The translations under genes were made by a program, and so were the position numbers. From the NCBI GenBank assembly GCA_023411575.1, contig JAEYOP010000049.1, positions 1 through 64,000 on the forward strand: 64,000 nucleotides of DNA, in the 5' to 3' direction. The stretch comes from Bacillota bacterium. Lineage in GTDB: Bacteria > Bacillota > Clostridia > Acetivibrionales > DTU013. The notes beneath the pieces were generated by a model that did no database searches, had not been told where the DNA came from, and was given only the letters and a program-made list of their open reading frames with translations. Below, one piece after another: positions 3,033 to 37,749 of this stretch; position 1 is the first letter of the stretch; every line of letters starts with the position of its first letter.

Positions 3033-3133
3033 GAGGTTCGAGTCCTCCATTGCCTGTGCGGCGATTAGCTCAGCGGTAGAGCATTCGGCACGATAATGAA
3101 GGTTCGAGTCCTTCATCGGACGCAGGTCCGATT
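3033..3133 (+). ncRNA. Degenerate tRNA-like elements: T-arm GGAGGTTCGAGTCCTCC, an intact tRNA 5' half, a second T-arm GAAGGTTCGAGTCCTTC, then a perfect hairpin
   Basis: The tRNA 5' half GCGGCGATTAGCTCAGCGGTAGAGC spans 3058-3082. The second T-arm spans 3098-3114 and the perfect 7-bp hairpin ATCGGAC-GCAG-GTCCGAT spans 3116-3133. The anticodon stem is imperfect and overlaps the T-stem, and there is no 3' acceptor strand, so these are tRNA-derived or tRNA-mimicking RNA rather than a functional tRNA gene. Confidence 0.3.
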
Positions 3134-17380: not shown

Positions 17381-17431
17381 GGCGGCTGCTGGGCGGGCCG
17401 GATAAGACAATGAAAAACAGTGAGGAAAATG

Positions 17432-19516
17432 ATGAAAAGAACCATAGAAGATAGAAAAGAGCAAACCATTGACCGGTGTTGGCTCCGATATAACAGATTG
17501 TCGAACGCCGGTCTGATCGAGGAATATAAAAAGTGGTGCGCCGGCATCGTCCTGCAGGAGGATTCGCCGGTGTGCCTGAATGCGCTGGAGGAGCTGAAAA
17601 AAGGAATCTGGGGGATGCTTGGAATCCGGCCCCGGGTAACGCGTTCCGCTTTGCAGGGCGCCCACATCCTGCTGGGAACTCTGGAAGGGAATCCTTCCCT
17701 CCCTGCTTTGCTGGGAATGGACCCGAAAGCTTCCGTAGGGGAGGACGGCTTTGCAATCCGGTTCGTCGGGACAGCGAACAGGAAGATCCTGGTGGTTGCC
17801 GGCCGGAACGGCAAAGGCCTGCTGTACGGCGTATTCTGTCTGTTGAGGGCCATGCAGACCCAGACGGAACCGGGGGACCTGCCGAGAACGGAAGGTCCGG
17901 CGAATAAGCTCCGGATGGTCAACCACTGGGATAACATGGACGGAAGCGTCGAAAGGGGATATGCGGGCCGGTCCCTCTTTTTCAGCGGCAACAAGCTCCT
18001 CCGGAACCACGGCAGGATACGGGAATATGCCAGGCTCCTGGCGTCGGTGGGCATCAACGGCGTCGTGATCAACAATGTCAATGTTCATAAATTCGAAACC
18101 CGGCTGATCTCCGGCGAATTCCTGGGGCCGGTTTCGAAGCTGGCGGACGTGTTCCGCCCTTATGGAATAAGGCTTTTCCTCAGCGCCAATTATGCCAGTC
18201 CCATGGAACTGGGCGGACTGGCCACGGCGGACCCGCTGGACGAGGGGGTCTGGCAGTGGTGGAAGGACAAGGCGGCGGAGATTTACCAGGCCATACCGGA
18301 TTTCGGCGGCTTTTTGATCAAAGCCGATTCCGAATTCCGGCCGGGGCCGTTCACCTACGGCCGCAGCCATGCGGACGGCGCCAATATGCTGGCCGAAGCG
18401 CTGGCGGACCACGGCGGGCTCGTCATCTGGAGGTGCTTTGTTTACAATTGCCTCCAGGATTGGCGGGACCGCGCGGTGGACAGGGCGAAGGCCGCGTATG
18501 GCAATTTCATGCCGCTGGACGGCCGGTTCCGGGACAATGTGCTGCTGCAGATCAAGAACGGACCCATGGATTTCCAGGTCCGCGAACCGGTGTCCCCGTT
18601 GATCGGGGGCCTGCGGAAGACCAACTTTACCCTGGAACTCCAGATCACGCAGGAATATACGGGACAGCAAAAGCACCTGTGCTATCTGGTCCCCATGTGG
18701 AAGGAAGTCCTGGATTTCGACACCTTTGCACGGGGGAAAGGGTCCACGGTTAAGGAGATCGTCAGCGGGCGGGTCTTCCGGAACGAGCCCGGTGGGTTCG
18801 CCGCTGTGGTCAATGTGGGCAACGACCCGAACTGGACCGGCTTTCAGTTGGCCCAGGCGAATTTGTACGGTTACGGCCGGCTGGCGTGGGATCCCTGTCT
18901 GCCGGCGGAGCAAATAACGGACGAGTGGGTCCGGATGACCTTTTCAAACGATCAGGCGGTCACGGACACTATATCCGGAATGCTGCTGGAGTCCTGGAGA
19001 ATTTACGAAAATTACAACGCGCCCCTTGGAATCGGCTGGATGGTGAACCCGAACCATCATTTCGGTCCCAATGTGGACGGCTACGAATACGCCAAATGGG
19101 GGACCTACCACCGGGCGGACAGCAAAGGCATCGGCGTGGACCGGTCTGTCGCGTCGGGAACCGGTTTCGCGGGGCAGTATCACAAAGAAGTGGCGCAGGC
19201 CTATGAAAAGATTGAAACCTGCCCGGAAGAGCTTCTCCTGTTCTTTCACCGGGTACCCTACGACTACGTGCTGAAATCGGGCGAAACGCTGATCCAGCAT
19301 ATATACAACACCCACTTCGAAGGAGTGGAGCAGGTTCAGAGCTTCATCGACAGGTGGCTCGGCTTGAAGGGACAGGTGGACGGCGCCCTTTTCGAGCATG
19401 TGCTGGAAAGGCTGGAAGGACAGCTGGAGCATGCGAAGGAATGGAGAGACGTGATCAATTCCTATTTTTACCGGAAAACCGGCATCGAGGACCGGAAGGG
19501 CAGGAAGATTTATTAA
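17432..19516 (+). CDS. aguA: Alpha-glucuronidase, GH67
   Basis: ~695 aa with GH67-like blocks ([36 protein letters not shown]). RBS GTGAGGAAA. Confidence 0.85.
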
Positions 19517-19539
19517 AGTGAGCGGTGAAGGAGAAGCGA

Positions 19540-21477
19540 ATGAAACCCATTGAATTGCGGCTTCCTCGTCTGATCAGCGACGGAATGGTGCTGCAAAGGG
19601 AACGGGAAGTGAATATTTGGGGCTGGGCTATTCCCGGGGCTTCGGTGACCGTGCATTTTCTGGGTTCCGTTTATCGGACCGGGGCCGGGGAGGATGGCAG
19701 GTGGAAGGCAAAGCTGCCTCCTATGAAAGCCGGAGGCCCGTATTCCATGAAAATCGAGTCTTGCGGAAAAGGCATTACGGTAAACGACATCCTGATCGGC
19801 GAGGTTTGGGTCTGCTCGGGACAGTCCAACATGGTACTGCCCATGTACCGGGTCTGCGAGCGCTACGCGGAGGAGATCACCCTGTCCTACAACCTGTCCA
19901 TCCGGCTTTTCATCGTCCCCGACCGGTGGGACTTCAACGAGGCCTGGGAGGACCTGGAATCCGGGCGGTGGGAGTCGCCGAACCCGGAGAGCATTCTGCA
20001 CTTTCCCGCCACGGGATATTTTTTTGCAAAGGCTTTGTTTGAACGGTATCATGTGCCGATAGGCTATATAAATGCAAGCGTGGGCGGCTCGCCCATCGAG
20101 GCGTGGCTGAGCGGGGATTCCCTGGAAAGCTTCCCGCAATACAAGGAAATCGCCTGCCGGTACAAGGATGAGCGCTATGTAGAACAGGTCAGGCAGGAAG
20201 ACGAGGAAGCCAGTAACAGATGGCATGACTATATATGCCGGATGGACCGGGGGCTGTCGGAAAGAGGGAACGAATGGTACCTAGAGGAGTATGACGATTC
20301 GGACTGGCCCTCCATGAACCTGCCTGCTTTTTGGGCGGAGAAGGGGCTCGGGCCCTTGAACGGCGTGGTCTGGTTCCGGAAGGAGTTCCGGGTCGGTCCC
20401 GAAATGGCGGGGGAGCCCGCGAAACTGCTGATGGGCAGGATTGTGGACAGCGATACAGTTTACGTAAACGGGCTGCTGGTCGGAACCACCGGTTACCAAT
20501 ACCCGCCCAGGCGGTATGCCATTCCCGGGAATGTGCTGAAGGCGGGCAGGAACGTCATTGTCGCCAGGGTGGTCAACACTTCCGGCAAAGGCGGCTTTGC
20601 GCCGGGAAAACCCTATAAGATCCTGGCAGGAGACCGGGAGGTGGATTTGTCGGGCGAATGGCGGTATTGCGTGGGAGCCGCTGCGGAACCGCTACGGGAA
20701 GCGACCTTCTTCCAGTACATGCCCTCGGGCTTGTTCAACGGTATGCTTTCTCCCCTTCTAAAGTATACGATCCGGGGTGTCAACTGGTACCAGGGGGAGT
20801 CCAATACGTCCAGGCCTTCGGATTACCGGCTGCTGCTGGCGGAATTGATCCGGGACTGGCGGGAAAAACGGAAGCAGGGGGAGCTGCCGTTTCTGTATGT
20901 GCAGCTGCCCAATTACCTGGAAGAGGACGACAGCCCGGCCAAAAGCGGCTGGCCTGAAATCCGGGAGGCCCAGCGCAGGACCCTGTCCGTTCCGAATACC
21001 GGAATGGCCGTCGCCATTGACGCGGGGGAATGGAATGACCTGCATCCCCTGAACAAGAAGGAGATCGGAAGCCGGCTGGCGTTGCTTGCCCGGAAGATCG
21101 CCTACGGGGAGGATATCGTGTGCTCGGGTCCCCTTTTGAGATCCGTTACCCTCCAAGGGACAAGAGCGGTTATCGAATTTGAGAAAGGAAGCGGAACCCT
21201 GGTCGCAAAAGGGGACGGGGAATTGAGGTGCTTTGAAATAGCAGGAGAGGACGGCGTATTTGTCCGGGCCAAAGCCGCTATTGAAGAGAACAAGGTCGTG
21301 GTATGGAGCGACGGAATCGACCGGCCTTCGGCGGTTCGCTACGCGTGGGTGGACAACCCGGAGGGGGCCAACCTGTACAACCGGGAAGGACTGCCGGCAT
21401 CGCCTTTCCGGGCGGAAATCACGCCGGCCGCGCCGGCTTCTATTTCCTCAGCAGAGCAGAGGGAGGCAGTCCTGTAA
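19540..21477 (+). CDS. SASA/DUF303-family carbohydrate esterase (sialate-O-acetylesterase-like; probable acetyl-xylan/oligosaccharide deacetylase)
   Basis: CSGQSNM motif of the SGNH-type sialate O-acetylesterase fold, present in duplicate (a second copy reads GESN). RBS AAGGAG. Confidence 0.7.
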   Translation: MKPIELRLPRLISDGMVLQREREVNIWGWAIPGASVTVHFLGSVYRTGAGEDGRWKAKLPPMKAGGPYSMKIESCGKGITVNDILIGEVWVCSGQSNMVLPMYRVCERYAEEITLSYNLSIRLFIVPDRWDFNEAWEDLESGRWESPNPESILHFPATGYFFAKALFERYHVPIGYINASVGGSPIEAWLSGDSLESFPQYKEIACRYKDERYVEQVRQEDEEASNRWHDYICRMDRGLSERGNEWYLEEYDDSDWPSMNLPAFWAEKGLGPLNGVVWFRKEFRVGPEMAGEPAKLLMGRIVDSDTVYVNGLLVGTTGYQYPPRRYAIPGNVLKAGRNVIVARVVNTSGKGGFAPGKPYKILAGDREVDLSGEWRYCVGAAAEPLREATFFQYMPSGLFNGMLSPLLKYTIRGVNWYQGESNTSRPSDYRLLLAELIRDWREKRKQGELPFLYVQLPNYLEEDDSPAKSGWPEIREAQRRTLSVPNTGMAVAIDAGEWNDLHPLNKKEIGSRLALLARKIAYGEDIVCSGPLLRSVTLQGTRAVIEFEKGSGTLVAKGDGELRCFEIAGEDGVFVRAKAAIEENKVVVWSDGIDRPSAVRYAWVDNPEGANLYNREGLPASPFRAEITPAAPASISSAEQREAVL

Positions 21478-22225
21478 GCTGTTTGAACAGCTTGCTGAAA
21501 TAAAAGATGTCGTCAAAGCCGCAAATCAATGCGGTGTCGGTTACGGAATACCCTTTGGTGGACAGAAGATCAAAAGCCTTGTTGATCCGGATCCGGTTCA
21601 GGAATTCCTTGATGGTGTAGCCCGTCACATGCCGGAATTTCGCGCTGAGATAAGCCGGATGGAGATTGACCAGCCCGGCAAGCTCCGTGACCAGGAGCTT
21701 TTCGGAAAAATGGCACAGAATATAATTTTTTACCTTTTCTATTTTGGGGTCCGGGACCTGCGGCGTGCTGTCGCCGGAAGCGAGGATGAGAAGCCGATGC
21801 AGGATGACCATGAAAAGGCCCCTTGCCTTGAGCATATAGCCCGTTCCCTTTTCCAGCCACAAATGATTGAACTGCCTGTACAGGGCCAGCAGTTCGCTGT
21901 CCGTGCCGACCGCAAATTTCTGCGGGAAGGGGAGCTCCTGAAATGCTCCCTCCGCGTATTGGTAATCAAAATTGAAAGCATAGCAATGAATCGGGTCGAC
22001 AGGGTTCGTGGCGGCTTTTCGCAGGGAGCCCTTCGGAATATAGATGATATCGCCCTGCTTCAGATGGATGTCCGTGCCGTTTACCGTATAGGTCGCTTCC
22101 CCGTCAACCAGATAAGTCAGGTCGTTGTACGGTATGGTGAATTCGCCGATGGACCAGGAAGGCATGTCCTTCCGCTCGATAAAGTATCGGATGGAGGGGA
22201 TCAGTTGATCGTAGCTGTTAGTCAT
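21440..22225 (-). CDS. AraC-family transcriptional regulator (N-terminal cupin, C-terminal HTH)
   Basis: HTH block ...LVNLHPAYLSAKFRHVTGYTIKEFLNRIRINKAFDLL...FYFSKLFKQLTG. Divergent from the first methyltransferase gene. Confidence 0.8.
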   Translation of the reverse strand: MTNSYDQLIPSIRYFIERKDMPSWSIGEFTIPYNDLTYLVDGEATYTVNGTDIHLKQGDIIYIPKGSLRKAATNPVDPIHCYAFNFDYQYAEGAFQELPFPQKFAVGTDSELLALYRQFNHLWLEKGTGYMLKARGLFMVILHRLLILASGDSTPQVPDPKIEKVKNYILCHFSEKLLVTELAGLVNLHPAYLSAKFRHVTGYTIKEFLNRIRINKAFDLLSTKGYSVTDTALICGFDDIFYFSKLFKQLTGLPPSALLRK

Positions 22226-22362
22226 CCTTGTATCCTTTACCTGCTGAACTAATATAGGTTGCTTACCCTTAAATTATTACAAACCACCTTATGTTTGTAT
22301 ATAGATTATATATCATTATTCCATTACAATAAAGGCATAAAATAGTATAAAGAGGAGATTGT

Positions 22363-23460
22363 ATGAAGTACGAGTTGGATTTGCGGAAATTCTGGGAGGA
22401 AAATGACACTGGCTTTTCACCGTTTGACACGACCAAAGCGCGCGTCCCTATCGATTTGCCCTTCGACGACCATTATCTGCTGGAGTTCATGGCGGCCGAC
22501 TCGACCGTACGATATTTCAAGGACCGCGACTACCGGCTGGGTCTGCACCGGAAATGCAACGATCTCATGGAAAAGGAGATCGGGCTCCGCTTTTTCCATG
22601 AAACGGAGGACATGGTCCTCCAGCCGAACCGATTCGAAGTAATCATGGGCGCCCACTGGGAAATGGCCGAAGGCGGGACTCCCTGGCTGGAATCCACGGT
22701 GGAGACCATCGAGGACGTTCAGGAACTGATCAAAAAAGCGGAAAAGCTGGATATGAAGAAAGCGGCCTTCCCGGAGGGCTGGTTCGAGGAAAAGGAAGCC
22801 TTCGAAAAAACTTCGGGGAAAAAGATGAGGCTCGGAGGCCAGGGACACAGGGGCCCCGCCACCATGGCTACCAGCATACTGGGCACCACCAATACCTGCA
22901 TGTTCATTATGGATGAACCGGAGGTCATGAAGGAGTTCTTTGTCCTTCTGACGGAAAAAATGGTGGAATACCATAAAGCCCTCATGGAAGCCACCGGGAA
23001 TACGGTCGGGAAAAAGTACTGGATCACGGACGACAACTGCTATCTGTTCCCTCCGAAGCAGTATCTGGAATTCTGCGCGCCGTTCCTCGCCAGGGTGTTC
23101 GCGGAATTCGCCCCGAACCCCGGGGATGAGCGCTACCAGCATTCCGACAGCGCCATGGGCCACTTGATGGGAATCCTCAACGACGTGGGCGTGAATTCCA
23201 CCAATTTCGGTCCGACGATCCATCCCCTTGAGATCCGCAAAGCCATGCCCAAAGCGGTGATCAACGGACAGATGCCTCCGTTCCTGCTGAGGAACGGCAC
23301 CCCGGAGGAAATCATCGAAACCGTGAGACGGGATATCGACTCCGTGGGCAGGGACGGCGGACTCGTGGAGAAAACGGCGGGCAGCATTGCCGGCGGAACC
23401 CCTCTTGAGAACGTCCGGATTTATATGTGGGCAGTGGACAAATACGGAAGATACCGATAA
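22363..23460 (+). CDS. Uroporphyrinogen-decarboxylase (URO-D/MtaA/CmuA) family methyltransferase-like protein
   Basis: GPATMA motif (GPFTLA-like) and C-terminal GSIAGGTPLENV (cf. MtaA GCD.PPGTP.ENI). 365 aa. RBS AGAGGAGA. Confidence 0.55.
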   Translation: MKYELDLRKFWEENDTGFSPFDTTKARVPIDLPFDDHYLLEFMAADSTVRYFKDRDYRLGLHRKCNDLMEKEIGLRFFHETEDMVLQPNRFEVIMGAHWEMAEGGTPWLESTVETIEDVQELIKKAEKLDMKKAAFPEGWFEEKEAFEKTSGKKMRLGGQGHRGPATMATSILGTTNTCMFIMDEPEVMKEFFVLLTEKMVEYHKALMEATGNTVGKKYWITDDNCYLFPPKQYLEFCAPFLARVFAEFAPNPGDERYQHSDSAMGHLMGILNDVGVNSTNFGPTIHPLEIRKAMPKAVINGQMPPFLLRNGTPEEIIETVRRDIDSVGRDGGLVEKTAGSIAGGTPLENVRIYMWAVDKYGRYR

Positions 23461-23513
23461 ATAAGAAAAGAAACAGGGGGGCAAGTACTTTGCCCCCCTG
23501 TTTTTGACTCTGG

Positions 23514-24545
23514 TTATGCTACTGTATTTTGATAAAATTCCTTTTCATTGAATTGCTTCAACTCGGAGAAAAAGGCGTCAATGTTTTCTGCCGGTGTTCC
23601 CGGAGGAACGTCGCAGCCGGAGGAAAGGACATAATTTTTGTAAGCGGCGGTTTTCGCCAGCAGGTTCCGGACTTTTTCCCTCATTTCCTCCACAGTGCCG
23701 TTCTTAAAAGTACCCGCCGGGTCGATATTGCCGAAGGCGAGCCTTCCCCAGGGGATCTGGGGCAATATGTCCGTCATATCCACCGCGTTGCCGAAGTGGA
23801 AAGCCATGGCTCCGGTAGAAAGCATGGATGGAACGAGATTCTTCGTATTTCCGCAGTTATGCAGAATAACGATAAAATGGTCGTCCTGTACGGCATCAAC
23901 GATCCGCTTGACATACTGCGAGGAGAACTCGGCGCACTGCTGCGGGGAAAGCAGGCCTGCCGCGGGTTCCGCGATGATGATCCCGTTTGCTCCGGCATTT
24001 TTGAACGCCTTTGCGTATTCGGCCAGGAAGGCGGTTGCCTTTTCCAGCACCAGATGGACCGTTTCGGGCTCGTCGAACAGGGTTATCATGATTTCGGTCA
24101 TGTCAAACAGTCTTCCGGCCAGGGAAAAGGGTCCGATCTCTCCGCCGAATACGGGCCGGTCCTCTATGGAGCTTGCCGCCAGCTCCGCCGCTTTCAGGTA
24201 AACGGATGTGCGCCCTTCTCCCATCCTGGGAATCCGAAGCGCAACAGCCGCCGCTTCTTCTTCTATGATCCTGGAAACGACGGTGGGAACGTCTTCCGTG
24301 GAGTATTTCACCGGGCTGCCGAAGGCCTCCGCCTCCACCGAAAGGTCCATGATGGTGACCGCCGCGATCGACGGATAGCGATCCGCCAGCGCTTTTATGC
24401 ATTCGAACTGGTTCTCGCCGTTCCGGATGACGTCCAGTACATTTTTTTGGATCAGCTTCAGGCCCGGGTAGGTCATAATGGGCATGGCCAGCCTTTCGCC
24501 GCTGTTGGATAGTTCACGGATCCATTTTTTCATGTCTCTTTTCAT
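23514..24545 (-). CDS. MtaA/CmuA-family (URO-D fold) methylcobamide methyltransferase
   Basis: GPFSLA, ILHNCGN and SSGCDVPPGTPAENI motifs. 343 aa, the same length as MtaA. Confidence 0.75.
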   Translation of the reverse strand: MKRDMKKWIRELSNSGERLAMPIMTYPGLKLIQKNVLDVIRNGENQFECIKALADRYPSIAAVTIMDLSVEAEAFGSPVKYSTEDVPTVVSRIIEEEAAAVALRIPRMGEGRTSVYLKAAELAASSIEDRPVFGGEIGPFSLAGRLFDMTEIMITLFDEPETVHLVLEKATAFLAEYAKAFKNAGANGIIIAEPAAGLLSPQQCAEFSSQYVKRIVDAVQDDHFIVILHNCGNTKNLVPSMLSTGAMAFHFGNAVDMTDILPQIPWGRLAFGNIDPAGTFKNGTVEEMREKVRNLLAKTAAYKNYVLSSGCDVPPGTPAENIDAFFSELKQFNEKEFYQNTVA

Positions 24546-24747
24546 TGTACCAATTCCCTTTGTCCATATTTTTCACTTCTATTTTCATGATACAGCGTTT
24601 AAAATAAGAGATATATTATTTAATTAAGAAGAATTGTACTTTTTTATGAGGATGGGGAAGCTGGCGCAGGATATTAATTTACTACAAAAAACATAAAAAA
24701 AATCCAATACCCTTTCCGCAAAAAGATAGTATGATGGAAGAGTAAGA

Positions 24748-26070
24748 GTGAAAGAGCGCGAGATGGAATTAAAACGATTACAAACCGAGCTGGGCTTTGA
24801 TCTGGGCAGGGCAAAGAAAAACATCGATATTTACAGTTCTTCCGTCGGAGTGGACAGCCTGGTGATCGATTCCACCGGAAGTCTGCTTTACCACGCCCGC
24901 GGAAAGACCATGTGCGGCTTCTGCCAGAAGGTGCAGGCAGTCGGCGGGTCCGCCCAGGGCTGTTCCGGCGTCCATCTGTACGGGAGCTACCAGGCGGAGC
25001 GGTTCGGCGGCAAATACGTTTTTTTCTGTCCTCTCGGGCTTGTACACTGGGCATCGCCTATCACCGCCGGAGGCATCATGAAGGGGGCGGTGCTTGGAGG
25101 ACCGGTCCTGATGGTAGAACCGGACGAATTCCTGTTTGACGAACTGTTGTCGGACAACCCGATGAGCGGATGCGAGGTTCAGGACCTGAAGGAATCGATT
25201 AAGGAAATCCCCGTGATCCAGCCGGATGTGGTGAACAGCCTGTCCGAGCTGTTGAGCATGGTGGCGGCGAATATTTCCGCAGAAGCGCCCCAGCCGTACC
25301 AGGAGGATATCGACCACCAGGAGCAGCAGGCTGAGATCTCGGAATACATCCAGTATATAAAGACCATGGGGGGGGAATGCAGTGAAATAGAGAGCTACCC
25401 TTTTGAAAAGGAAAAGGAACTGCTTTCCCGCATCCAGGTGGGGGACAAGGCCGAATCCCAGAGGGTTTTGAATGAGATACTGGGTCACGTGTTTTTTGCA
25501 ACGGGCGGCAACTTTGAGATCATCAAGGCAAGGGTTCTGGAGCTGATCGTACTGCTGTCCAGGGCGGCGCTCAGCGGCGGCGCGGATGTGGAACAAATTT
25601 TCGGCCTGAATTACAAATACCTGTCGCAGATCCATGACTTCCGGACGGTGGAAGAGCTCGCCTCCTGGCTTTCCGGCATTATGAACCGCTTTACCGACTG
25701 TGTGTTCAATCTGGTGGATGTGAAGCATATAGATGTGATTTATAAGGCCATGGATTACATCAAACGGAATTATAAGAAGAAAATCACGCTGGAGGAGGTC
25801 GCATCCCATGTGTACCTGAGTCCGTCCTACTTCTGCCTGGTTTTCAAAAAGGAATTGAAATGCAATTTTAAAACCTATGTGAACCGGATCCGGATTGAAA
25901 TGAGCAAGAAGCTGCTCCTGGACAATTCCATTCCGCTGACGGATATCGCAAGCGATGTGGGCTTCGAGGACCAGAGCTATTTTACAAAGGTCTTCCGGAG
26001 CCTCACGGGAACCAGCCCCGGGAAATACAGGGAAAAGGGCGGACAGGTAATAGCGGGGAGTTCGTATTGA
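24748..26070 (+). CDS. AraC-family regulator with an N-terminal PocR sensory domain
   Basis: PocR-type N-terminus (cysteine-containing ...GFCQKVQ...FFCPLGLVHWASPI...). C-terminal AraC HTH (...YLSPSYFCLVFKKELKCNFKTYVNRIRIEMSKKLL...FEDQSYFTKVFRSLTGTSPGKYR). The start may instead be the internal ATG at 24763. Confidence 0.8.
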   Translation: MKEREMELKRLQTELGFDLGRAKKNIDIYSSSVGVDSLVIDSTGSLLYHARGKTMCGFCQKVQAVGGSAQGCSGVHLYGSYQAERFGGKYVFFCPLGLVHWASPITAGGIMKGAVLGGPVLMVEPDEFLFDELLSDNPMSGCEVQDLKESIKEIPVIQPDVVNSLSELLSMVAANISAEAPQPYQEDIDHQEQQAEISEYIQYIKTMGGECSEIESYPFEKEKELLSRIQVGDKAESQRVLNEILGHVFFATGGNFEIIKARVLELIVLLSRAALSGGADVEQIFGLNYKYLSQIHDFRTVEELASWLSGIMNRFTDCVFNLVDVKHIDVIYKAMDYIKRNYKKKITLEEVASHVYLSPSYFCLVFKKELKCNFKTYVNRIRIEMSKKLLLDNSIPLTDIASDVGFEDQSYFTKVFRSLTGTSPGKYREKGGQVIAGSSY

Positions 26071-26131
26071 AATGAATTTAAATAAAATAGCAACCAATAA
26101 AAATGGGAACGATCGATCAGGAGGATGAATT

Positions 26132-26767
26132 ATGAGTATTACAAGCGCAATTTCCGAAAATCTCCAGCAGGGTAAGGCGAAAGCGGTGAAAGAGCTGGTC
26201 CAGCAGGCAATCGACGAGGGCATGGACGTAAAGGTGATTCTGGAAGAGGGCCTTCTGGCAGGCATGTCCATCATCGGGGCAAAATTCAGGAATAACGAAG
26301 TGTATGTTCCGGACGTCCTTATCGCGGCAAGAGCCATGAACGCCGGTTCCCAGTTGCTGAAGCCCCTGTTGATTTCCAGCGGCGTCAAGGCGGCGGGCAA
26401 GGTGGTCCTGGGTACGGTCAAGGGAGACTTGCATGATATCGGAAAGAATCTCGTCAAAATGATGATGGAAGGAAAAGGACTGGAGGTCATCGATGTGGGA
26501 ATCGATGTTTCGGCGGAGAAGTTCGTCTCCACGGCAAAGGAGACTGGCGCGCAGATCGTTGCCTGCTCGGCTCTTCTGACCACGACGATGACGGAAATCA
26601 AAACAGTGGTGGAAGCGATCACTGCTGCAGGGATGAGGGACCAGGTCACGATCATGATCGGGGGCGCTCCGGTAACGGACTCCTTCTGCAAGCAGGTCGG
26701 CGCTGACATTTATACGCCGGATGCGGCCACGGCAGCCGAAGAAGCGGCCCGCGTCTGCATGGCATAA
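26132..26767 (+). CDS. Cobalamin-binding corrinoid protein (MtaC/MtbC-like, B12-binding_2 cap plus B12-binding Rossmann domain)
   Basis: DxHxxG motif GDLHDIGKN, then SALLTTTM and GGAP. 211 aa. RBS AGGAGGA. Confidence 0.85.
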   Translation: MSITSAISENLQQGKAKAVKELVQQAIDEGMDVKVILEEGLLAGMSIIGAKFRNNEVYVPDVLIAARAMNAGSQLLKPLLISSGVKAAGKVVLGTVKGDLHDIGKNLVKMMMEGKGLEVIDVGIDVSAEKFVSTAKETGAQIVACSALLTTTMTEIKTVVEAITAAGMRDQVTIMIGGAPVTDSFCKQVGADIYTPDAATAAEEAARVCMA

Positions 26768-26848
26768 CAAACGACAGCCTGCCGGTTGGCAGGACATGGA
26801 ATCCGGCAGGCGCGTACGGCTACGGACCTGCCCGGTATAAAAGGTATA

Positions 26849-26900
26849 AAAATCCTCAGAGCCTTGCATGCTCATGCATGCAGGTTCTGAGGATTTTTGC
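26849..26900. terminator. Rho-independent terminator (aaaaatcctcagagccttgcatg...catgcaggttctgaggattttt)
   Basis: Long perfect palindrome with flanking A- and T-runs, downstream of the corrinoid protein gene. Confidence 0.55.
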
Positions 26901-26912
26901 GGTGCAGCCCTT

Positions 26913-27073
26913 AAGGGATGACCGAATAATAAATTCCGGTTCTTGAGCGGTTATTTTCCGCCCTTACATCGTTGTCGTCAGTTGCAATAAAACAATTATT
27001 GCGCCTTCCTCCGCCTTGTAAGGACGAAAAATCCCTCGCTCAGGAATCCGTTTTTATTATTCGGTCATCCCTT
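26913..27073. repeat. 21-bp perfect inverted repeat (aagggatgaccgaataataaa / tttattattcggtcatccctt) flanking a 119-bp spacer
   Basis: The left arm spans 26913-26933 and the right arm 27053-27073. The left arm, together with upstream ...gcagcccttaagggatga, encodes AALKG-stop, the conserved C-terminus of the CUT1 permeases here. The same aagggatgaccgaat follows the permease at 54857-54880. The right arm supplies the last codons (GMTE-stop) of the Phd-Uma2 gene. Confidence 0.6.
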
Positions 27074-27839
27074 CTATCAAATCATGGAACAGGTCGGCGA
27101 CGTCGGCGGACAATCCGCTGAAAAACAGGGACTCTGCGACGGAACCTTTTTCAAACACCTTGTACTGGTCGATTTCGCAATCCTTGAACCGATAGATCAG
27201 GATGCTCTCCTGCCTTGTGTCAATGACCCAGTATTCCTTCACCCCGGCAAGCATATAGGTATTGAGTTTGTCGATCATGTCCCTGGACCGCGTGCTTTCC
27301 GAGAGAATTTCGACCACAAGGGTCGGAGTACCCATATAGCGGCCCTTTTCCGTCACGTTGTTTTCCAGGTCGCAGGCGACAAGAATGTCCGGCTGGAAGA
27401 CATCCGGTGTCTGGATGTCCTTTTTTTTCAGGCGGACGTCAAAGGGGGCCAGAAATACTCTGCATTTTTTTCCTTTAAAATAGGCATGGAAGAGCAGATG
27501 CAGTCTGCCGAGGAGCTCCTGGTGCCCTATATTCGGGGAAGAGAGCACAATAATTTCTCCATTGAGCAGTTCCATCCGCAGGGTGCTTTTCTCCGAAATC
27601 TCCAGGAACTCCTCATAAGAGACCTTTTTGCCGCCATACTGATAATCCAGCGCTCTTTCCTTCACCAGAAAATACTGCTCGATATCAGAGACATACGGGG
27701 TCAGCCGGGCAACCTTATTGCCGTTTTTTGTGATCACCACGTCATTTTGTTCCTCGACGTAATCCAGGTATTTTCCAAAATTCTGCTTGAGCTCGGTCGC
27801 GGTAACGGTAACGCCTTCCTTATAATTAGCGGACGTCAT
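27057..27839 (-). CDS. Fusion protein: N-terminal Phd/YefM-type antitoxin domain and C-terminal Uma2 (DUF820, PD-(D/E)xK-like putative endonuclease) domain
   Basis: N-terminus TATELKQNFGKYLDYVEEQNDVVITKNGNKVARLTP matches the Phd/YefM fold signature. C-terminal region SYEEFLEI...GEIIVLSSP...PDILVACD...TLVVEILSEST...EYWVID matches Uma2. RBS GAGGTGA before the internal Met; the track ORF is trimmed by 15 aa. Confidence 0.6.
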   Translation of the reverse strand: MTSANYKEGVTVTATELKQNFGKYLDYVEEQNDVVITKNGNKVARLTPYVSDIEQYFLVKERALDYQYGGKKVSYEEFLEISEKSTLRMELLNGEIIVLSSPNIGHQELLGRLHLLFHAYFKGKKCRVFLAPFDVRLKKKDIQTPDVFQPDILVACDLENNVTEKGRYMGTPTLVVEILSESTRSRDMIDKLNTYMLAGVKEYWVIDTRQESILIYRFKDCEIDQYKVFEKGSVAESLFFSGLSADVADLFHDLIEGMTE

Positions 27840-27944
27840 AAAATCACCTCTGCTGTAATTATATAGTAACAGACGGAATAACACAATAGAATCGTACGAT
27901 ATTTCCGAAACAATCGTACGAAATAAGATGCCGAAACGATCAAA

Positions 27945-34529: not shown

Positions 34530-34563
34530 ACGCCATCCCGCTTCGTGCCGGATGGCGTTTTTG
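34530..34563. terminator. Bidirectional terminator (aaacgccatcccgcttcgtgccggatggcgttttt)
   Basis: Perfect hairpin with flanking A- and T-runs, between the convergent GH2 and TM-AraC genes. Confidence 0.55.
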
Positions 34564-34580
34564 ACGTTCCGCTTTTTTTC

Positions 34581-36854: not shown

Positions 36855-36900
36855 CGCATTCCTCCATGGATTCTTTGGGGCTTGTGCCGGTTTCCCGCCT

Positions 36901-37749
36901 TCAGCCGGAGCTTTGCTTCTTGTAGGTGCTGGGGGATATTCCCACGACCCTGCGGAACACCTTGCTGAAATACAACGGGTTTTCGTATCCCACGATGGAC
37001 GACACCTCCGCTACGTTGAGCGACGAGCCGGACAACAGCTTTTTCGCCTCATTCACCCGGAGCTTGGTGATGTATTCGACCGGGGTCATTCCCGTTTCCG
37101 CTTTGAACTTGTGGATGAACCGGTACAGGCTCAGATTGCACTCGCCAGCCAGGTCGGCAACCGTAAAGCGCTGATGGTATGTCCCATGTATTTTGACCAG
37201 GACCCTTTTGATGGAATTCCCGGTCTGGCCGTATTCCTCCTTGCGGAGCAGGACTTCCCTTCCGAAGGAGGCCAGCAGCTGCAAAAAATAGGAGGAGGCC
37301 ATCAGCCGGAAGTGTTCCTTTTTGATTTGCAGCTCCAGGATGATTTTTTCGAACAACTCGATGAAAGGCTCCCGGATTCCGACCTGCTTTACGGGCGATT
37401 CCAGGAGGCCGGCCGCCTGCAGGTATTCTTCCGCGGCGGAGCCGGTGAAATGGGCCCAGTACAGCTCGGTGCCGTCCTTTGCCAGGAAGCTGTAATGCTG
37501 CGGCTGCCGGGGGCGGTATACGACGATGCTTCCCTTTGGCACTTCACGGGCAATTCCGTCCAGTATAAAGGTCCCTTTCCCGTTCACGAGGTAAATAAGC
37601 TGATAGTCCGCTCTTCCACAGGCCCTTGTGCGGGTCAGGTTCATGGTTTTCAATATCTGGTGGCCGCACCAGTTGACTGCAAGGGGGCTTTTGCCGTCCT
37701 GCAGTCCGGCCTCCGTCCAATCCAACGCATTGCCGGCGATGTTCATCAT
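36901..37749 (-). CDS. AraC-family transcriptional regulator (cupin plus HTH)
   Basis: HTH block ...FTVADLAGECNLSLYRFIHKFKAETGMTPVEYITKLRVNEAKKLL...PLYFSKVFRRVVGISPSTYKK. Confidence 0.8.
   Translation of the reverse strand: MMNIAGNALDWTEAGLQDGKSPLAVNWCGHQILKTMNLTRTRACGRADYQLIYLVNGKGTFILDGIAREVPKGSIVVYRPRQPQHYSFLAKDGTELYWAHFTGSAAEEYLQAAGLLESPVKQVGIREPFIELFEKIILELQIKKEHFRLMASSYFLQLLASFGREVLLRKEEYGQTGNSIKRVLVKIHGTYHQRFTVADLAGECNLSLYRFIHKFKAETGMTPVEYITKLRVNEAKKLLSGSSLNVAEVSSIVGYENPLYFSKVFRRVVGISPSTYKKQSSG

What the first reader, a model, noticed from the sequence alone, without database searches (positions are those of the whole stretch)
21440..26900. Corrinoid-dependent methyltransferase module inside a glucurono-arabinoxylan locus: candidate sugar O-demethylase
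The module holds two MtaA/CmuA (URO-D fold) methyltransferases and a canonical B12-binding corrinoid protein. The first is at 22363-23460 (GPATMA, GGTPLENV). The second is at 23514-24545 (GPFSLA, ILHNCGN, SSGCDVPPGTPAENI). The corrinoid protein is at 26132-26767 (GDLHDIGKN, SALLTTTM). A PocR-AraC regulator (24748-26070) and a divergent cupin-AraC (21440-22225) control it. This is the standard parts list of a three-component corrinoid methyl-transfer system (MT-I, corrinoid protein, MT-II). Such systems are known from methanogens, acetogens and Desulfitobacterium O-demethylases. No MtaB/MttB-type substrate methyltransferase, pterin-binding MtrH-type MT-II or RamA-type reductive activase is visible in the window. 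The module sits directly downstream of the GH67 alpha-glucuronidase and an SASA acetylesterase. GH67 is the enzyme that releases 4-O-methyl-glucuronic acid from xylan. It also sits upstream of the GH127, GH43-like, GH2 and GH51 genes. The rest of the window is purely saccharolytic, with no other C1 or acetogenesis genes. My inference is that this is an O-demethylase acting on a methylated sugar such as 4-O-methyl-glucuronate released by GH67, and possibly other O-methyl sugars. I know of no enzymatically defined demethylation step for 4-O-methyl-glucuronate, so this is a plausible novel pathway. The PocR sensory domain and the double AraC control fit induction by a small-molecule product.
Basis: partly seen in the sequence, partly recalled or inferred. 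Interest (0 to 1): 0.88.

Follow-up and report, generated by a model that had tools for sequence, protein, structure and literature searches.

The report
Possible sugar demethylase beside xylan genes
Next to the enzyme that frees 4-O-methyl-glucuronic acid from xylan sit two separately conserved gene units, an uncharacterised URO-D-family enzyme found near glucuronidase and uronate genes in several phyla and a B12-protein/methyltransferase pair, which together may remove the sugar's methyl group, though this is inferred only.

Summary
All five genes exist as described; one detail was missing: URO-D2 (23514-24545) is on the minus strand. The "module" is two independently conserved units separated by a strong bidirectional terminator.

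- **Unit A:** cupin-AraC <-> URO-D1.
- **Unit B:** URO-D2 <-> PocR-AraC -> corrinoid protein.

In the closest relatives each unit occurs without the other.

Unit B is a genuine corrinoid unit. Forty-four of 83 URO-D2 loci carry a corrinoid protein. Orthologous trios sit with MtaB, DUF1638 and RACo in three loci. URO-D2 keeps the His-Cys-Cys zinc motif of thiol-directed MtaA.

URO-D1 belongs to a large uncharacterised clade (547 genome loci, at least eight phyla). Only 1 of 82 loci has a corrinoid protein nearby. Fourteen carry glucuronidase or hexuronate genes (GH67, beta-glucuronidase, GH4, UxaC, UxuA, KdgK/KdgA). Its zinc-site positions read His-x-Asp/Gly. A related clade shares these motifs and includes fusions to B12-binding and pterin-binding domains.

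Best reading (about 0.4): URO-D1 is an O-type methyltransferase I acting on 4-O-methyl-glucuronate, passing the methyl to the corrinoid protein and on to a thiol via URO-D2. No activase is present. The held literature describes no such enzyme. Verdict: partly supported, a new variant of a known kind, interest 0.62.

The parts
17420..19516 (+). GH67 alpha-glucuronidase. This is context: it releases (4-O-methyl-)glucuronic acid from xylo-oligosaccharides.
   Evidence: Pfam Glyco_hydro_67N/M/C at 82/523/333 bits. GH67 also sits directly beside URO-D1 homologues in L077 and L084.
19525..21477 (+). SASA-type carbohydrate esterase with a GH2_N-like sugar-binding domain (context).
   Evidence: Pfam SASA, 68 bits. 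Its 3' end overlaps the 3' end of the convergent cupin-AraC gene by 38 bp.
21440..22225 (-). Unit A regulator: a cupin-AraC transcription factor divergent from URO-D1.
   Evidence: Pfam Cupin_2/AraC_binding + HTH_18. The divergent AraC/URO-D1 pair is conserved in L006, L018, L029, L034 and L038 (phmmer 1e-47 to 1e-74). In L173 the AraC is 78% identical.
22226..22362 (.). Divergent A+T-rich promoter region of unit A, with a ribosome-binding site (AAAGAGGAGA) 4 nt upstream of the URO-D1 ATG.
   Evidence: Sequence read directly. One promoter-like site lies on the minus strand at 22301-22273 (consensus match only).
22363..23460 (+). URO-D1: a member of a large uncharacterised URO-D clade with His260-x-Asp262 at the zinc-site positions and Gly340 in place of the third ligand. 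It is the candidate O-type methyltransferase I.
   Evidence: - Pfam URO-D, 91 bits. NCBIfam MtaA/CmuA gives only 50 bits against a cut-off of 235.
- No PDB hit with the single sequence. With the family profile, MtaA 4AY7 scores E 5e-7 and plant UROD 1e-6.
- 827 homologues and 547 genome loci.
- Motif mapping.
23471..23503 (.). Bidirectional intrinsic terminator shared by the convergent URO-D1 and URO-D2 genes.
   Evidence: 14-bp stem with 8 G-C pairs, T-runs on both strands.
23514..24545 (-). URO-D2: an MtaA-like zinc methyltransferase (His229-x-Cys231 ... Cys311) and the candidate methyl-corrinoid:thiol methyltransferase II.
   Evidence: - Pfam URO-D, 196 bits.
- Best PDB hit is MtaA 4AY7, with LHNCGN aligned to LHICGN and SSGCD to APGCG.
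- NCBIfam scores of 154 and 133 bits fall below the cut-offs of 244 and 235.
- 44 of 83 related loci carry a corrinoid protein within 10 kb.
24546..24747 (.). Divergent A+T-rich intergenic region between URO-D2 and PocR-AraC.
   Evidence: Sequence read directly.
24748..26070 (+). PocR-AraC regulator of unit B. The alternative ATG start at 24763 gives 435 aa.
   Evidence: Pfam PocR 82 bits + HTH_18 76 bits. Orthologues (1e-147 to 1e-193) lie beside a corrinoid protein and URO-D2 in L088, L093, L114, L120 and L123, and beside URO-D2 and a RACo gene fragment on the short contig L096. A Pfam-annotated trio is also present in L174. Different gene callers give 435 or 440 aa.
26132..26767 (+). Corrinoid (B12-binding) methyl-carrier protein of the MtaC/MtbC/MtgC type.
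   Evidence: Pfam B12-binding_2 + B12-binding. DxHxxG (GDLHDIGKN), SxL (SALL) and GG motifs are present. NCBIfam 'methyltransferase cognate corrinoid protein' scores 186 bits against a cut-off of 215.

Best explanation
**Overall.** The region holds two independently conserved gene units that are neighbours in this genome. Together they most likely form a corrinoid-dependent route for removing the methyl ether of 4-O-methyl-glucuronate, the sugar released by the adjacent GH67.

**Unit A (shown).** It consists of the cupin-AraC regulator and URO-D1. URO-D1 is a TIM-barrel enzyme of the URO-D superfamily and belongs to a large clade tied to glucuronidase and hexuronate genes. It carries His-x-Asp where thiol-directed relatives have His-x-Cys.

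**Unit A (inferred).** URO-D1 binds the methylated uronic acid. It activates the ether oxygen at a His/Asp (probably zinc) site and lets Co(I) of a corrinoid take the methyl group. This makes it a methyltransferase I.

**Unit B (shown).** It consists of PocR-AraC, an MtaC-like corrinoid protein and URO-D2, an MtaA-like His-Cys-Cys zinc enzyme. The unit is conserved and in other genomes works beside MtaB.

**Unit B (inferred).** The corrinoid protein carries the methyl group. URO-D2 passes it to a thiol acceptor of unknown identity. Demethylated glucuronate then enters ordinary hexuronate catabolism.

**Remaining gaps (inferred).** Reductive reactivation of the corrinoid must be supplied from elsewhere in the genome. 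In most other genomes URO-D1 relatives would have to use corrinoid proteins encoded at a distance.
For: 1. **Fold and family.** Pfam URO-D match. A confident model whose best structural matches are UROD and MtaA. With the family profile, MtaA is the top PDB sequence hit.
2. **Active site.** Three independent alignments place His260/Asp262 on the His/Cys of MtaA-type enzymes and Gly340 on the third Cys. His260, Ser261, Asp262, Ser263, Asp223 and Asp224 are invariant in 26 diverse members. PMC10418091 states that UroD-family O-methyltransferases replace Cys ligands by carboxylates or non-ligands, whereas S-methyltransferases keep His-Cys-Cys.
3. **Rosetta-stone link.** The URO-D1 profile also retrieves, at about 105 bits, relatives outside the clade. 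Among them are P0448 (URO-D + B12-binding domain) and P0452 (pterin-binding + URO-D + B12-binding domain). They share the DD motif, H-x-D, Gly at the third ligand position, GTPxxN and the C-terminal KYG[RK] with URO-D1.
4. **The same pairing elsewhere.** L110 has an HSD-type URO-D - corrinoid protein - URO-D2-like triad. L150 and L154 have an HND-type URO-D next to a URO-D2-like gene.
5. **Physical links of URO-D1 to corrinoid systems.**
   - In the window the gap to URO-D2 is 53 bp.
   - In L067 a URO-D1 homologue lies 93 bp from a cluster of MtaB, MtaC, DUF1638, RACo and two URO-D genes.
6. **Substrate clue.**
   - GH67 lies directly beside URO-D1 homologues in the window, L077 and L084. In L084 the gene order is GH67-GFO-XI_TIM-URO-D1-SDR-UxuA next to a LacI regulator.
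   - An equivalog-level beta-glucuronidase lies 19 bp downstream of the homologue in Dictyoglomus L007.
   - UxaC, KdgK, KdgA and an IclR regulator occur in L006.
   - Fourteen of 82 URO-D1 loci carry uronate genes, against 1 of 83 URO-D2 loci.
7. **Independent precedent.** A corrinoid methyltransferase cassette lies in a same-strand gene run with GH115 alpha-glucuronidase in L135, and beside UxuB-like, MFS, PfkB and LacI genes in L179.
8. **No other MT-I candidate.** The window's unit B has no other candidate for methyltransferase I within 64 kb. PMC13391211 notes that corrinoid proteins and MT-II enzymes can be shared by several MT-I enzymes and that solitary methyltransferase genes occur.
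Against: - Eighty-one of 82 URO-D1 loci elsewhere have no corrinoid protein within 10 kb, against 44 of 83 for URO-D2.
- The closest URO-D1 relative (84% identity, L173) has no unit B. The closest URO-D2 relatives (L174, L175, L088, L093) have no URO-D1.
- The two units have separate regulators and a terminator between them.
- The window holds no RACo/RamA or MetH-activation-type activase.
- Orthologous trios sit with MtaB in L114, L120 and L123. Unit B's usual donor may therefore be methanol.
- URO-D1 is only about 17-24% identical to any corrinoid methyltransferase and fails the curated NCBIfam cut-off.
- An aliphatic secondary alkoxide is a much poorer leaving group than a phenolate (general chemistry).
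- Many clade members come from lineages such as Armatimonadota and Chloroflexota. From my own knowledge, unchecked here, corrinoid methyl transfer is not prominent in those lineages.
- Nothing has been tested biochemically.
Confidence: 0.4

Rival explanations
1. URO-D1 removes the methyl group without a corrinoid protein and releases methanol. One possible route is beta-elimination across C4-C5 of the uronate, giving an unsaturated uronate that flows to KDG. Unit B would then be a methanol-sensing, methanol-type corrinoid unit (MtaC/MtaA-like) that scavenges the methanol, with an MtaB encoded elsewhere.
For: - URO-D1 is almost always a lone gene with no corrinoid protein nearby (1 of 82).
- Orthologues of the PocR-AraC/corrinoid protein/URO-D2 trio are clustered with MtaB, DUF1638 and RACo in L114, L120 and L123.
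- In L067 the URO-D1 homologue lies beside a complete MtaB/MtaC/RACo set.
- KdgK, KdgA, an IclR regulator and SDR genes recur near URO-D1.
- From my own knowledge, not checked here: alkaline pulping converts 4-O-methyl-glucuronic acid side groups to hexenuronic acid by eliminating methanol. Enterobacter asburiae JDR-1 was reported to release methanol from methylglucuronoxylose.
Against: - No URO-D-fold lyase is known.
- URO-D1 keeps the metal-site and other motifs it shares with URO-D domains fused to B12-binding domains.
- No MtaB lies within the 64 kb, nor near the trio in L088, L093 or L174.
Confidence: 0.2
2. The adjacency is coincidental. URO-D1 would have some other role on sugar acids or glucuronides, such as a decarboxylase, an isomerase, or a methyltransferase for another substrate. 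Unit B would be an unrelated methanol or methyl-thiol (MtsA/MtsB-like) system that happens to lie in a carbohydrate island.
For: - The units are separately conserved and separately transcribed.
- Unit B occurs in non-carbohydrate surroundings in L093 (UDG, MFS, GDPD, spore germination genes).
- The closest Clostridia homologues of URO-D1 (68-74% identity, L008-L016) lie beside LeuS, a PHP phosphatase and an acyl-CoA ligase.
- The immediate neighbours of URO-D1 are very diverse, with 138 Pfam families among 124 neighbours.
- Only 2 of 83 URO-D1 loci, counting the window, lie near a corrinoid protein. My rough estimate is about 0.8 expected by chance for a 10-kb radius, so this is only weakly significant.
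Against: - The two links are very tight: a 53-bp gap in the window and a 93-bp gap to the methyltransferase cluster in L067.
- URO-D1 shares active-site motifs with corrinoid-fused relatives.
- The O-type plus S-type URO-D pairing recurs in L110, L150 and L154.
- A corrinoid cassette is co-operonic with GH115 in L135.
Confidence: 0.25
3. The system demethylates aromatic methyl ethers carried by plant cell-wall material or glycosides, for example ferulate esterified to arabinoxylan or methoxylated flavonoid aglycones. It would not act on a methylated sugar.
For: - From my own knowledge, every characterised UroD-family O-demethylase acts on phenyl methyl ethers. [quoted passage not shown]
- The window is an arabinoxylan locus with GH127, GH43-like and GH51 genes. 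From general knowledge, arabinoxylan carries feruloyl groups.
- The related Bacteroidales cassette sits beside GH78 rhamnosidases and a GH3 in L177. From general knowledge, this is a typical set for flavonoid glycosides.
- A beta-glucuronidase next to URO-D1 in L007 could act on phenolic glucuronides.
Against: - No feruloyl esterase or aromatic catabolic gene was found among the annotated long ORFs of the window.
- No pterin-binding MT-II typical of bacterial O-demethylases is present.
- URO-D1 sits inside sugar-acid gene runs (GH67-GFO-XI_TIM-URO-D1-SDR-UxuA in L084; UxaC/KdgK/KdgA in L006).
Confidence: 0.1

Closest known systems
Methanol:coenzyme M methyltransferase system MtaB/MtaC/MtaA of Methanosarcina (MtaA structure: PDB 4AY7)
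   Same: - A corrinoid carrier protein with the DxHxxG and SxL motifs.
- A URO-D-fold zinc methyltransferase with His-x-Cys...Cys. It is the best PDB hit for URO-D2 and, by profile, for URO-D1.
- Orthologues of the window's PocR-AraC/corrinoid protein/URO-D2 trio are clustered with MtaB, DUF1638 and RACo in three metagenomic loci.
   Different: - The window has no MtaB and no activase.
- The host is a saccharolytic Clostridia MAG, not a methanogen.
- The thiol acceptor cannot be assumed to be coenzyme M.
- URO-D2 fails the curated NCBIfam cut-offs for MtaA/MtbA.
- A second, O-type URO-D enzyme stands where MtaB would be expected.
Corrinoid-dependent aryl O-demethylases of anaerobes (Odm/Vdm of Acetobacterium dehalogenans, Mtv of Moorella thermoacetica, Dhaf_4610-4612 of Desulfitobacterium hafniense)
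   Same: Three-component logic: MT-I, corrinoid protein, MT-II. MT-I is a UroD-superfamily protein in which the Cys zinc ligands are replaced (PMC10418091), as in URO-D1.
   Different: - Known substrates are phenyl methyl ethers. MT-II is a pterin-binding enzyme that methylates tetrahydrofolate, and an ATP-dependent activase is encoded alongside (PMC6739815 abstract; PMC13391211).
- The window has no pterin-binding protein and no activase.
- Here the candidate MT-II is thiol-type.
- The genomic context is sugar-acid rather than aromatic.
- The units are not co-transcribed.
[quoted passage not shown]
   Same: His-Cys-Cys UroD-family enzymes paired with a corrinoid protein in non-methylotrophic anaerobes, including Clostridia. 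This could describe unit B on its own.
   Different: Type 1 mlp clusters contain at least an Mlp2 and an Mlp3 (both His-Cys-Cys) plus a Ram/RACE activase, and they associate with sulfur or selenium genes. The window has one His-Cys-Cys enzyme, no activase, a PocR-AraC regulator and a carbohydrate context. Phylogenetic placement against Mlp1-3 was not tested.
Cytochrome P450 6-O-methyl-D-galactose demethylase of marine Bacteroidetes (porphyran utilisation)
   Same: It is the only described enzyme in the held literature that demethylates a methoxy sugar released during polysaccharide breakdown, and it is encoded within the glycan-utilisation locus (PMC9400963 and PMC10033563 abstracts).
   Different: It is oxidative and O2-dependent and releases formaldehyde. 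The protein family is unrelated. The present candidate would be anoxic, B12-dependent and methyl-conserving.
Uroporphyrinogen decarboxylase HemE
   Different: URO-D2 scores 78 bits against the HemE equivalog cut-off of 303, and URO-D1 does not match at all. There is no haem-biosynthesis context. The database name is almost certainly wrong for both.

Membership tests
Three-component corrinoid methyltransferase system (MT-I / corrinoid protein / MT-II / activase) | A corrinoid carrier protein with a B12-binding Rossmann domain (DxHxxG, SxL) and an N-terminal helical cap | tested here: met
   Pfam B12-binding_2 66 bits + B12-binding 88 bits. GDLHDIGKN and SALL motifs are present.
Three-component corrinoid methyltransferase system (MT-I / corrinoid protein / MT-II / activase) | A methyl-corrinoid:acceptor methyltransferase (MT-II) | tested here: met
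   URO-D2 aligns to MtaA 4AY7 with His-x-Cys and the third Cys conserved. Its family is linked to a corrinoid protein in 44 of 83 loci. The acceptor is unknown.
Three-component corrinoid methyltransferase system (MT-I / corrinoid protein / MT-II / activase) | A substrate-specific MT-I genetically coupled to the corrinoid protein | tested here: inconclusive
   URO-D1 has the O-type signature and related domains fused to B12-binding domains. However, its clade is coupled to a corrinoid protein in only 1 of 82 other loci, and it is not co-transcribed with unit B.
Three-component corrinoid methyltransferase system (MT-I / corrinoid protein / MT-II / activase) | A reductive activase (RamA/RACo, or a MetH-type activation domain) | tested here: not met
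   tblastn with RACo from L067 and L159 and with Met_synt_B12 proteins from L135 and L177 found nothing in the window. Pfam on the long ORFs annotated found none. It may be encoded elsewhere in the genome.
MtaA/CmuA family methyltransferase (NCBIfam TIGR01463 / NF004889) | Score at or above the curated family cut-off | tested here: not met
   URO-D1 scores 50.4 bits against a cut-off of 235.4. URO-D2 scores 133.4 against 235.4 and 153.6 against 244.
MtaA/CmuA family methyltransferase (NCBIfam TIGR01463 / NF004889) | A His-Cys-Cys zinc site | tested here: met
   Met for URO-D2 (H229, C231, C311). Not met for URO-D1 (H260, D262, G340).
Methanol methyltransferase MtaABC | An MtaB (PF12176) methanol:corrinoid methyltransferase adjacent to MtaC | tested here: not met
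   No MtaB anywhere in the 64 kb. MtaB is present beside orthologous trios in L114, L120 and L123 and beside the URO-D1 homologue in L067.
Uroporphyrinogen decarboxylase HemE (TIGR01464) | Score at or above the equivalog cut-off | tested here: not met
   URO-D2 scores 78.5 bits against a cut-off of 302.95. URO-D1 has no match.
Type 1 mlp gene cluster (PMC10418091) | [quoted passage not shown] | tested here: not met
   The window has only one His-Cys-Cys URO-D and no Ram/RACE. Placement of URO-D2 relative to Mlp1-3 was not tested because no reference sequences were to hand.
Sugar O-demethylase acting on 4-O-methyl-glucuronate (hypothetical function) | Demethylase activity on 4-O-methyl-glucuronate or aldouronates | not testable with these tools
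   Only contextual support is available. GH67, beta-glucuronidase, GH4, UxaC, UxuA and KdgK/KdgA occur near URO-D1 homologues in 14 of 82 loci, against 1 of 83 control loci.

The most novel reading that the evidence does not exclude
The URO-D1 clade would be the missing 4-O-methyl-glucuronate O-demethylase. The clade has 547 genome loci in Bacillota, Dictyoglomota, Armatimonadota, Chloroflexota, Planctomycetota, Verrucomicrobiota, Lentisphaerota, Spirochaetota and Bacteroidota. It would be the first corrinoid methyltransferase that cleaves an aliphatic sugar methyl ether. More broadly, corrinoid methyltransferase cassettes embedded in glycan-utilisation loci would be a general, unrecognised way for anaerobes to strip O-methyl groups from plant glycans and feed them into C1 metabolism. 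These cassettes include the AraC/URO-D/corrinoid protein/MetH-activation/URO-D/MFS cassette of gut Bacteroidales. The corrinoid-protein genes BT_0340, BT_0342 and BT_0343 of Bacteroides thetaiotaomicron may belong to the same phenomenon.
Probability: 0.3. Interest if true: 0.85.

Novelty: new variant of a known kind. Interest (0 to 1): 0.62.

Why it matters
From general knowledge, 4-O-methyl-glucuronic acid is the main acidic side group of hardwood and grass xylans and also caps arabinogalactan proteins. The searches of the held literature found no enzyme that removes its methyl ether; the only methoxy-sugar demethylase that turned up is the P450 for 6-O-methyl-galactose.

If URO-D1 and its relatives do this job, several things follow.
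- A missing step in anaerobic hemicellulose catabolism would be filled.
- Corrinoid methyl-transfer chemistry would extend from phenyl ethers, methanol, amines and thiols to sugar ethers.
- Plant cell-wall degradation would gain a direct route into methyl-group (C1) metabolism and a link to B12 demand in soils, digesters and guts.
- Several hundred genes now labelled 'uroporphyrinogen decarboxylase' would gain a function.

Even if the sugar hypothesis fails, three results stand. The module splits into two conserved units. The URO-D1 clade is linked to glucuronidases. Corrinoid cassettes occur in Bacteroidales polysaccharide loci. All three are concrete, testable leads.

Tried and rejected
**Searches that gave nothing useful**
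- A single-sequence PDB search with URO-D1 gave no hit. The family profile was needed.
- Rfam over the whole window found no cobalamin riboswitch or other regulatory RNA, only a weak tRNA-like hit at 3062-3118.
- The promoter scan gave no more sites than shuffled sequence (10 found against 8.1 expected). No promoter claims are made.
- The literature searches for a corrinoid-dependent or any other 4-O-methyl-glucuronate demethylase, and for URO-D genes in xylan transcriptomes, found nothing relevant. The 2009 paper on Enterobacter asburiae JDR-1 that I recall is not in the held library.

**Analyses that did not discriminate**
- I looked for a single dominant neighbour of URO-D1 by clustering ORFs from 81 loci and by Pfam on 124 immediate neighbours. 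None exists. The commonest are dehydrogenases (Zn-ADH, SDR, GFO, Fe-ADH), solute-binding proteins and LacI/AraC regulators.
- I looked for URO-D1-clade proteins fused to a B12 domain among the strong hits of the representative search. All full-length clade members are 350-400 aa. Fusions occur only in more distant relatives outside the clade.

**Ideas tested and dropped**
- The N-terminal 400 residues of the 612-aa corrinoid fusion in L125 did not reach E 1e-5 against either URO-D profile.
- Recent horizontal insertion of the module: the G+C content of the enzyme genes (0.54-0.56) is close to that of the flanking GH genes (0.57-0.59), and only the regulators and the Uma2 gene are lower.
- The long antisense ORFs 15923-18913(-) and 23529-24512(+) have no Pfam match, and 24778-26709(-) lies antisense to the Pfam-supported PocR-AraC and corrinoid-protein genes. 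I treat all three as spurious.
- HemE function is rejected for both URO-D genes.

Full report
**1. The observation**

- Pfam gives a cupin-AraC regulator at 21440-22225(-).
- It gives a URO-D protein at 22363-23460(+) (91 bits; here 'URO-D1').
- It gives a second URO-D protein at 23514-24545 (196 bits; 'URO-D2').
- It gives a PocR-AraC regulator at 24748-26070(+).
- It gives a canonical corrinoid protein at 26132-26767(+), with B12-binding_2 + B12-binding domains and the DxHxxG and SxL motifs.
- All quoted peptide motifs are in the translations.

The flanks are as described: GH67 and a SASA esterase upstream; GH127, a GH43-like gene, GH2 and GH51 downstream. The 48 long ORFs I annotated elsewhere in the 64 kb are ABC sugar transporters, AraC-type and two-component regulators, GH8, GH31 and a few housekeeping genes.

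tblastn with example proteins found no MtaB, RACo, DUF1638, pterin-binding methyltransferase or MetH-activation-domain protein. There is no cobalamin riboswitch.

The window matches a 433-kb scaffold of a metagenome-assembled genome. The named close homologues of URO-D1 and URO-D2 come from uncultured Clostridia and other Bacillota.

**2. Anatomy: two units, not one module**

URO-D1 and URO-D2 converge on a perfect 14-bp-stem hairpin with T-runs on both strands (23471-23503). Each has its own divergent regulator.
- Unit A is cupin-AraC <-> URO-D1.
- Unit B is URO-D2 <-> PocR-AraC -> corrinoid protein.

Comparative data show the two units are conserved independently.
- The AraC/URO-D1 pair recurs in L006, L018, L029, L034 and L038.
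- It also recurs in the closest relative, L173 (URO-D1 84% and AraC 78% identical). There it is followed by a 598-aa GH2 and a solute-binding protein, with a multidomain GH10 xylanase nearby, and there is no URO-D2 or corrinoid protein.
- The URO-D2/PocR-AraC/corrinoid protein trio recurs in L174 (URO-D2 78% identical), L088 and L093 without URO-D1. L175 shows URO-D2 and PocR-AraC on a short contig.
- In L093 the trio lies among unrelated genes.

**3. Unit B is a bona fide corrinoid unit of the methanol type**

- URO-D2's best PDB hit is MtaA of Methanosarcina mazei (4AY7). LHNCGN aligns to LHICGN and SSGCD to APGCG, so the His-Cys-Cys zinc site is kept. These residues are invariant in 16 relatives.
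- Of 83 non-redundant loci found through the URO-D2 family, 44 carry a corrinoid protein within 10 kb, although many contigs are short.
- In L114, L120 and L123, strong matches to all three proteins (PocR-AraC about 1e-165, corrinoid protein about 1e-95) sit with MtaB (about 1e-157), DUF1638 and RACo. That is a complete methanol:corrinoid methyltransferase cluster.
- According to PMC10418091, His-Cys-Cys marks S- or Se-directed UroD enzymes.
- The tetrahydrofolate-directed MtaA of acetogens is a different protein of about 30 kDa (PMC13391211). L088 has such a pterin-binding protein 6 kb from its trio.

I therefore read URO-D2 as a methyl-corrinoid:thiol methyltransferase. A reverse, methyl-thiol-demethylating role is the alternative.

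**4. URO-D1 belongs to a large, uncharacterised, glucuronide-linked clade**

Size and fold:
- It has 827 homologues in the protein collection.
- It has 547 confirmed loci among GTDB species genomes. These are spread over Clostridia, Dictyoglomota, Armatimonadota, Chloroflexota, Planctomycetota, Verrucomicrobiota, Lentisphaerota, Spirochaetota and Bacteroidota.
- About 70 clusters at 50% identity score E <= 1e-30.

Neighbourhoods, in 82 loci other than the window:
- Only one (L067) has a corrinoid protein within 10 kb.
- In the closest Clostridia (68-74% identity) the gene lies in conserved synteny with LeuS, a PHP phosphatase and an acyl-CoA ligase.
- Elsewhere the neighbours vary widely (138 Pfam families among 124 immediate neighbours). 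They are rich in sugar dehydrogenases, solute-binding proteins and LacI/AraC regulators.

A uronate theme stands out:
- GH67 lies immediately upstream in L077 and two genes upstream, in the same run, in L084. The L084 gene order is GH67-GFO-XI_TIM-URO-D1-SDR-UxuA, next to a LacI regulator and a GH3.
- A beta-glucuronidase that passes the NCBIfam equivalog cut-off (828 bits against 544) lies 19 bp downstream in Dictyoglomus L007. A 42%-identical one occurs in L048.
- GH4 occurs in six loci.
- UxaC, KdgK, KdgA and an IclR regulator occur in L006.
- In total, 14 of 82 URO-D1 loci carry such genes, against 1 of 83 URO-D2 loci.

**5. Is URO-D1 a corrinoid methyltransferase?**

Three alignments map His260 and Asp262 onto the His and Cys of the MtaA zinc site, and Gly340 onto the third Cys. 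They are the profile-profile alignment to the URO-D2 family, the profile alignment to 4AY7 and a multiple alignment. His260-Ser-Asp262-Ser, Asp223 and Asp224 are invariant. PMC10418091 describes this replacement of Cys by carboxylate or by non-ligands as the mark of O-directed UroD methyltransferases.

The URO-D1 profile also retrieves related URO-D proteins outside the clade at about 105 bits.
- Among them, P0448 is a URO-D + B12-binding fusion, and P0452 is a pterin-binding + URO-D + B12-binding fusion.
- These share the DD motif, H-x-D, the Gly at the third ligand position, GTPxxN and even the C-terminal KYG[RK] with URO-D1.

The same pairing of an O-type with an S-type URO-D occurs in L110 (HSD-type URO-D - corrinoid protein - URO-D2-like) and in L150 and L154.

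In the Fimbriimonadaceae locus L067, the URO-D1 homologue lies 93 bp from a cluster of MtaB, MtaC, DUF1638, RACo and two URO-D genes.

These points favour a corrinoid-dependent MT-I. The near-absence of corrinoid proteins from URO-D1 neighbourhoods is the main counter-argument. PMC13391211 notes that corrinoid proteins and MT-II enzymes are shared among MT-I enzymes and that solitary methyltransferase genes exist. That softens the objection but does not remove it.

**6. Independent precedent for corrinoid cassettes in glycan loci**

While following URO-D2 relatives I found a highly conserved Bacteroidales cassette: AraC or a hybrid regulator <-> URO-D (His-x-Cys...His) - corrinoid protein - MetH-activation-like protein - URO-D (His-Cys-Cys) - MFS. 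Its contexts are:
- L135: a same-strand run with two GH127 genes, a GH115 alpha-glucuronidase and a GH2.
- Coprobacter L177: two GH78 genes, a GH3 and a GH92.
- L181: GH51-like genes, a GH92 and SusC/SusD.
- Rikenellaceae L179: UxuB-like, MFS, PfkB and LacI hexuronate-type genes.

A human-gut contig, L125, carries a GH31 that matches PDB 5F7C end to end (1581 bits), SusD-like genes, a URO-D2-like gene and a 612-aa corrinoid fusion. PMC8941943 lists BT_0340, BT_0342 and BT_0343 of Bacteroides thetaiotaomicron as 'Mta' corrinoid proteins and does not describe their function in the passages I read.

Corrinoid methyl transfer inside polysaccharide loci is therefore recurrent. Its substrates could be methylated sugars or methoxylated aglycones.

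**7. Verdict**

- My best model (confidence about 0.4) is this. URO-D1 is an O-type MT-I acting on 4-O-methyl-glucuronate released by GH67. It hands the methyl group to the neighbouring MtaC-like corrinoid protein. URO-D2 passes the methyl group on to a thiol, and the activase is encoded elsewhere.
- The rivals are as follows:
  - corrinoid-independent methanol release by URO-D1, with unit B handling the methanol (0.2);
  - coincidental adjacency of two unrelated units (0.25);
  - aromatic methyl ethers such as ferulate as the substrate (0.1).
- Shown: gene identities, motifs, transcription architecture, family distributions and neighbourhood statistics.
- Inferred: substrate, direction of methyl flow, metal, acceptor and any cooperation between the two units.
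- Novelty: a new variant of a known kind, namely a corrinoid methyl-transfer system with an unusual composition and a possible new substrate class.
- Interest: 0.62.

Noticed in passing
L135:3369-20998; L177:8999-14818; L181:10001-15738; L179:6823-11026: A highly conserved Bacteroidales cassette (80-99% identity among its first URO-D proteins, 7694 homologues): AraC or a hybrid regulator <-> URO-D (His-x-Cys...His) - corrinoid protein - MetH-activation-like protein - URO-D (His-Cys-Cys) - MFS. It is embedded next to GH127/GH115/GH2 in L135, GH78x2/GH3/GH92 in L177, GH51-like/GH92/SusCD in L181 and UxuB-like/MFS/PfkB/LacI genes in L179. The held literature gives it no function.
   Followed up: partly
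L125:1-20918: A human-gut contig carrying a polysaccharide-utilisation-type locus. It has SusD-like genes, a GH31 that matches PDB 5F7C end to end (1581 bits), a URO-D2-like gene (51% identity) and a 612-aa protein whose C-terminus is a corrinoid-binding domain. PMC8941943 lists BT_0340, BT_0342 and BT_0343 of Bacteroides thetaiotaomicron as 'Mta' corrinoid proteins and does not describe their function in the passages I read.
   Followed up: partly
L067:3350-12216: A Fimbriimonadaceae (Armatimonadota) MAG carries a full methanol-type set next to the URO-D1 homologue and a BNR sialidase-like gene. The set is MtaC, MtaB (562 bits), DUF1638, RACo with a 2Fe-2S domain and two URO-D genes. From my own knowledge, this lineage is not known for methanol or corrinoid methyl-transfer metabolism.
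   Followed up: partly
P0448 (615 aa) and P0452 (750 aa), from the representative library: Single-chain fusions of a URO-D domain (H-N-D type) with a corrinoid-binding domain. In P0452 an N-terminal pterin-binding (MeTr-like) segment is also present, giving an MT-II/MT-I/corrinoid protein in one polypeptide. Their substrates are unknown.
   Followed up: partly
L084:5586-12988: An Anaerolineaceae gene run GH67 - GFO/IDH/MocA oxidoreductase - xylose-isomerase-like TIM barrel - URO-D1 homologue - SDR - UxuA, next to a LacI regulator and a GH3. The trio URO-D + GFO + XI-like TIM barrel also appears in L089/L090 with a different (413-aa) URO-D. This hints at an oxidation/elimination step on the same substrate.
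   Followed up: no
window 27057-27884 (-): An ORF that combines an N-terminal Phd/YefM antitoxin-like segment with a Uma2 (putative restriction endonuclease-like) domain. It lies between the corrinoid protein gene and the AraC/GH127 genes, has low G+C (0.48), and is conserved at this position in the same-organism contigs L001 and L003.
   Followed up: no
window 3062-3118 (+): A short tRNA-like Rfam match (34 bits, model positions 4-67) in an intergenic stretch before the Band_7 and RtcB genes. It was not checked with ARAGORN.
   Followed up: no
window 15923-18913 (-), 24778-26709 (-), 34545-36968 (+): Very long ORFs lie antisense to real genes: 996 aa opposite the dCache-AraC and GH67 genes, and 643 aa opposite the PocR-AraC and corrinoid protein genes. 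The 996-aa ORF has no Pfam match; the 643-aa ORF was not scanned. Conversely, at 34581-36854 the minus-strand ORF is the real gene (dCache-AraC), and the two plus-strand ORFs have no match.
   Followed up: yes
L088:9001-16641: In a Clostridia MAG the URO-D2/PocR-AraC/corrinoid protein trio is followed on the same strand by a GH106 alpha-L-rhamnosidase. A 266-aa pterin-binding (MeTr/acetogen-MtaA-like) protein lies 6 kb away. This is another glycosidase-linked instance of unit B.
   Followed up: no
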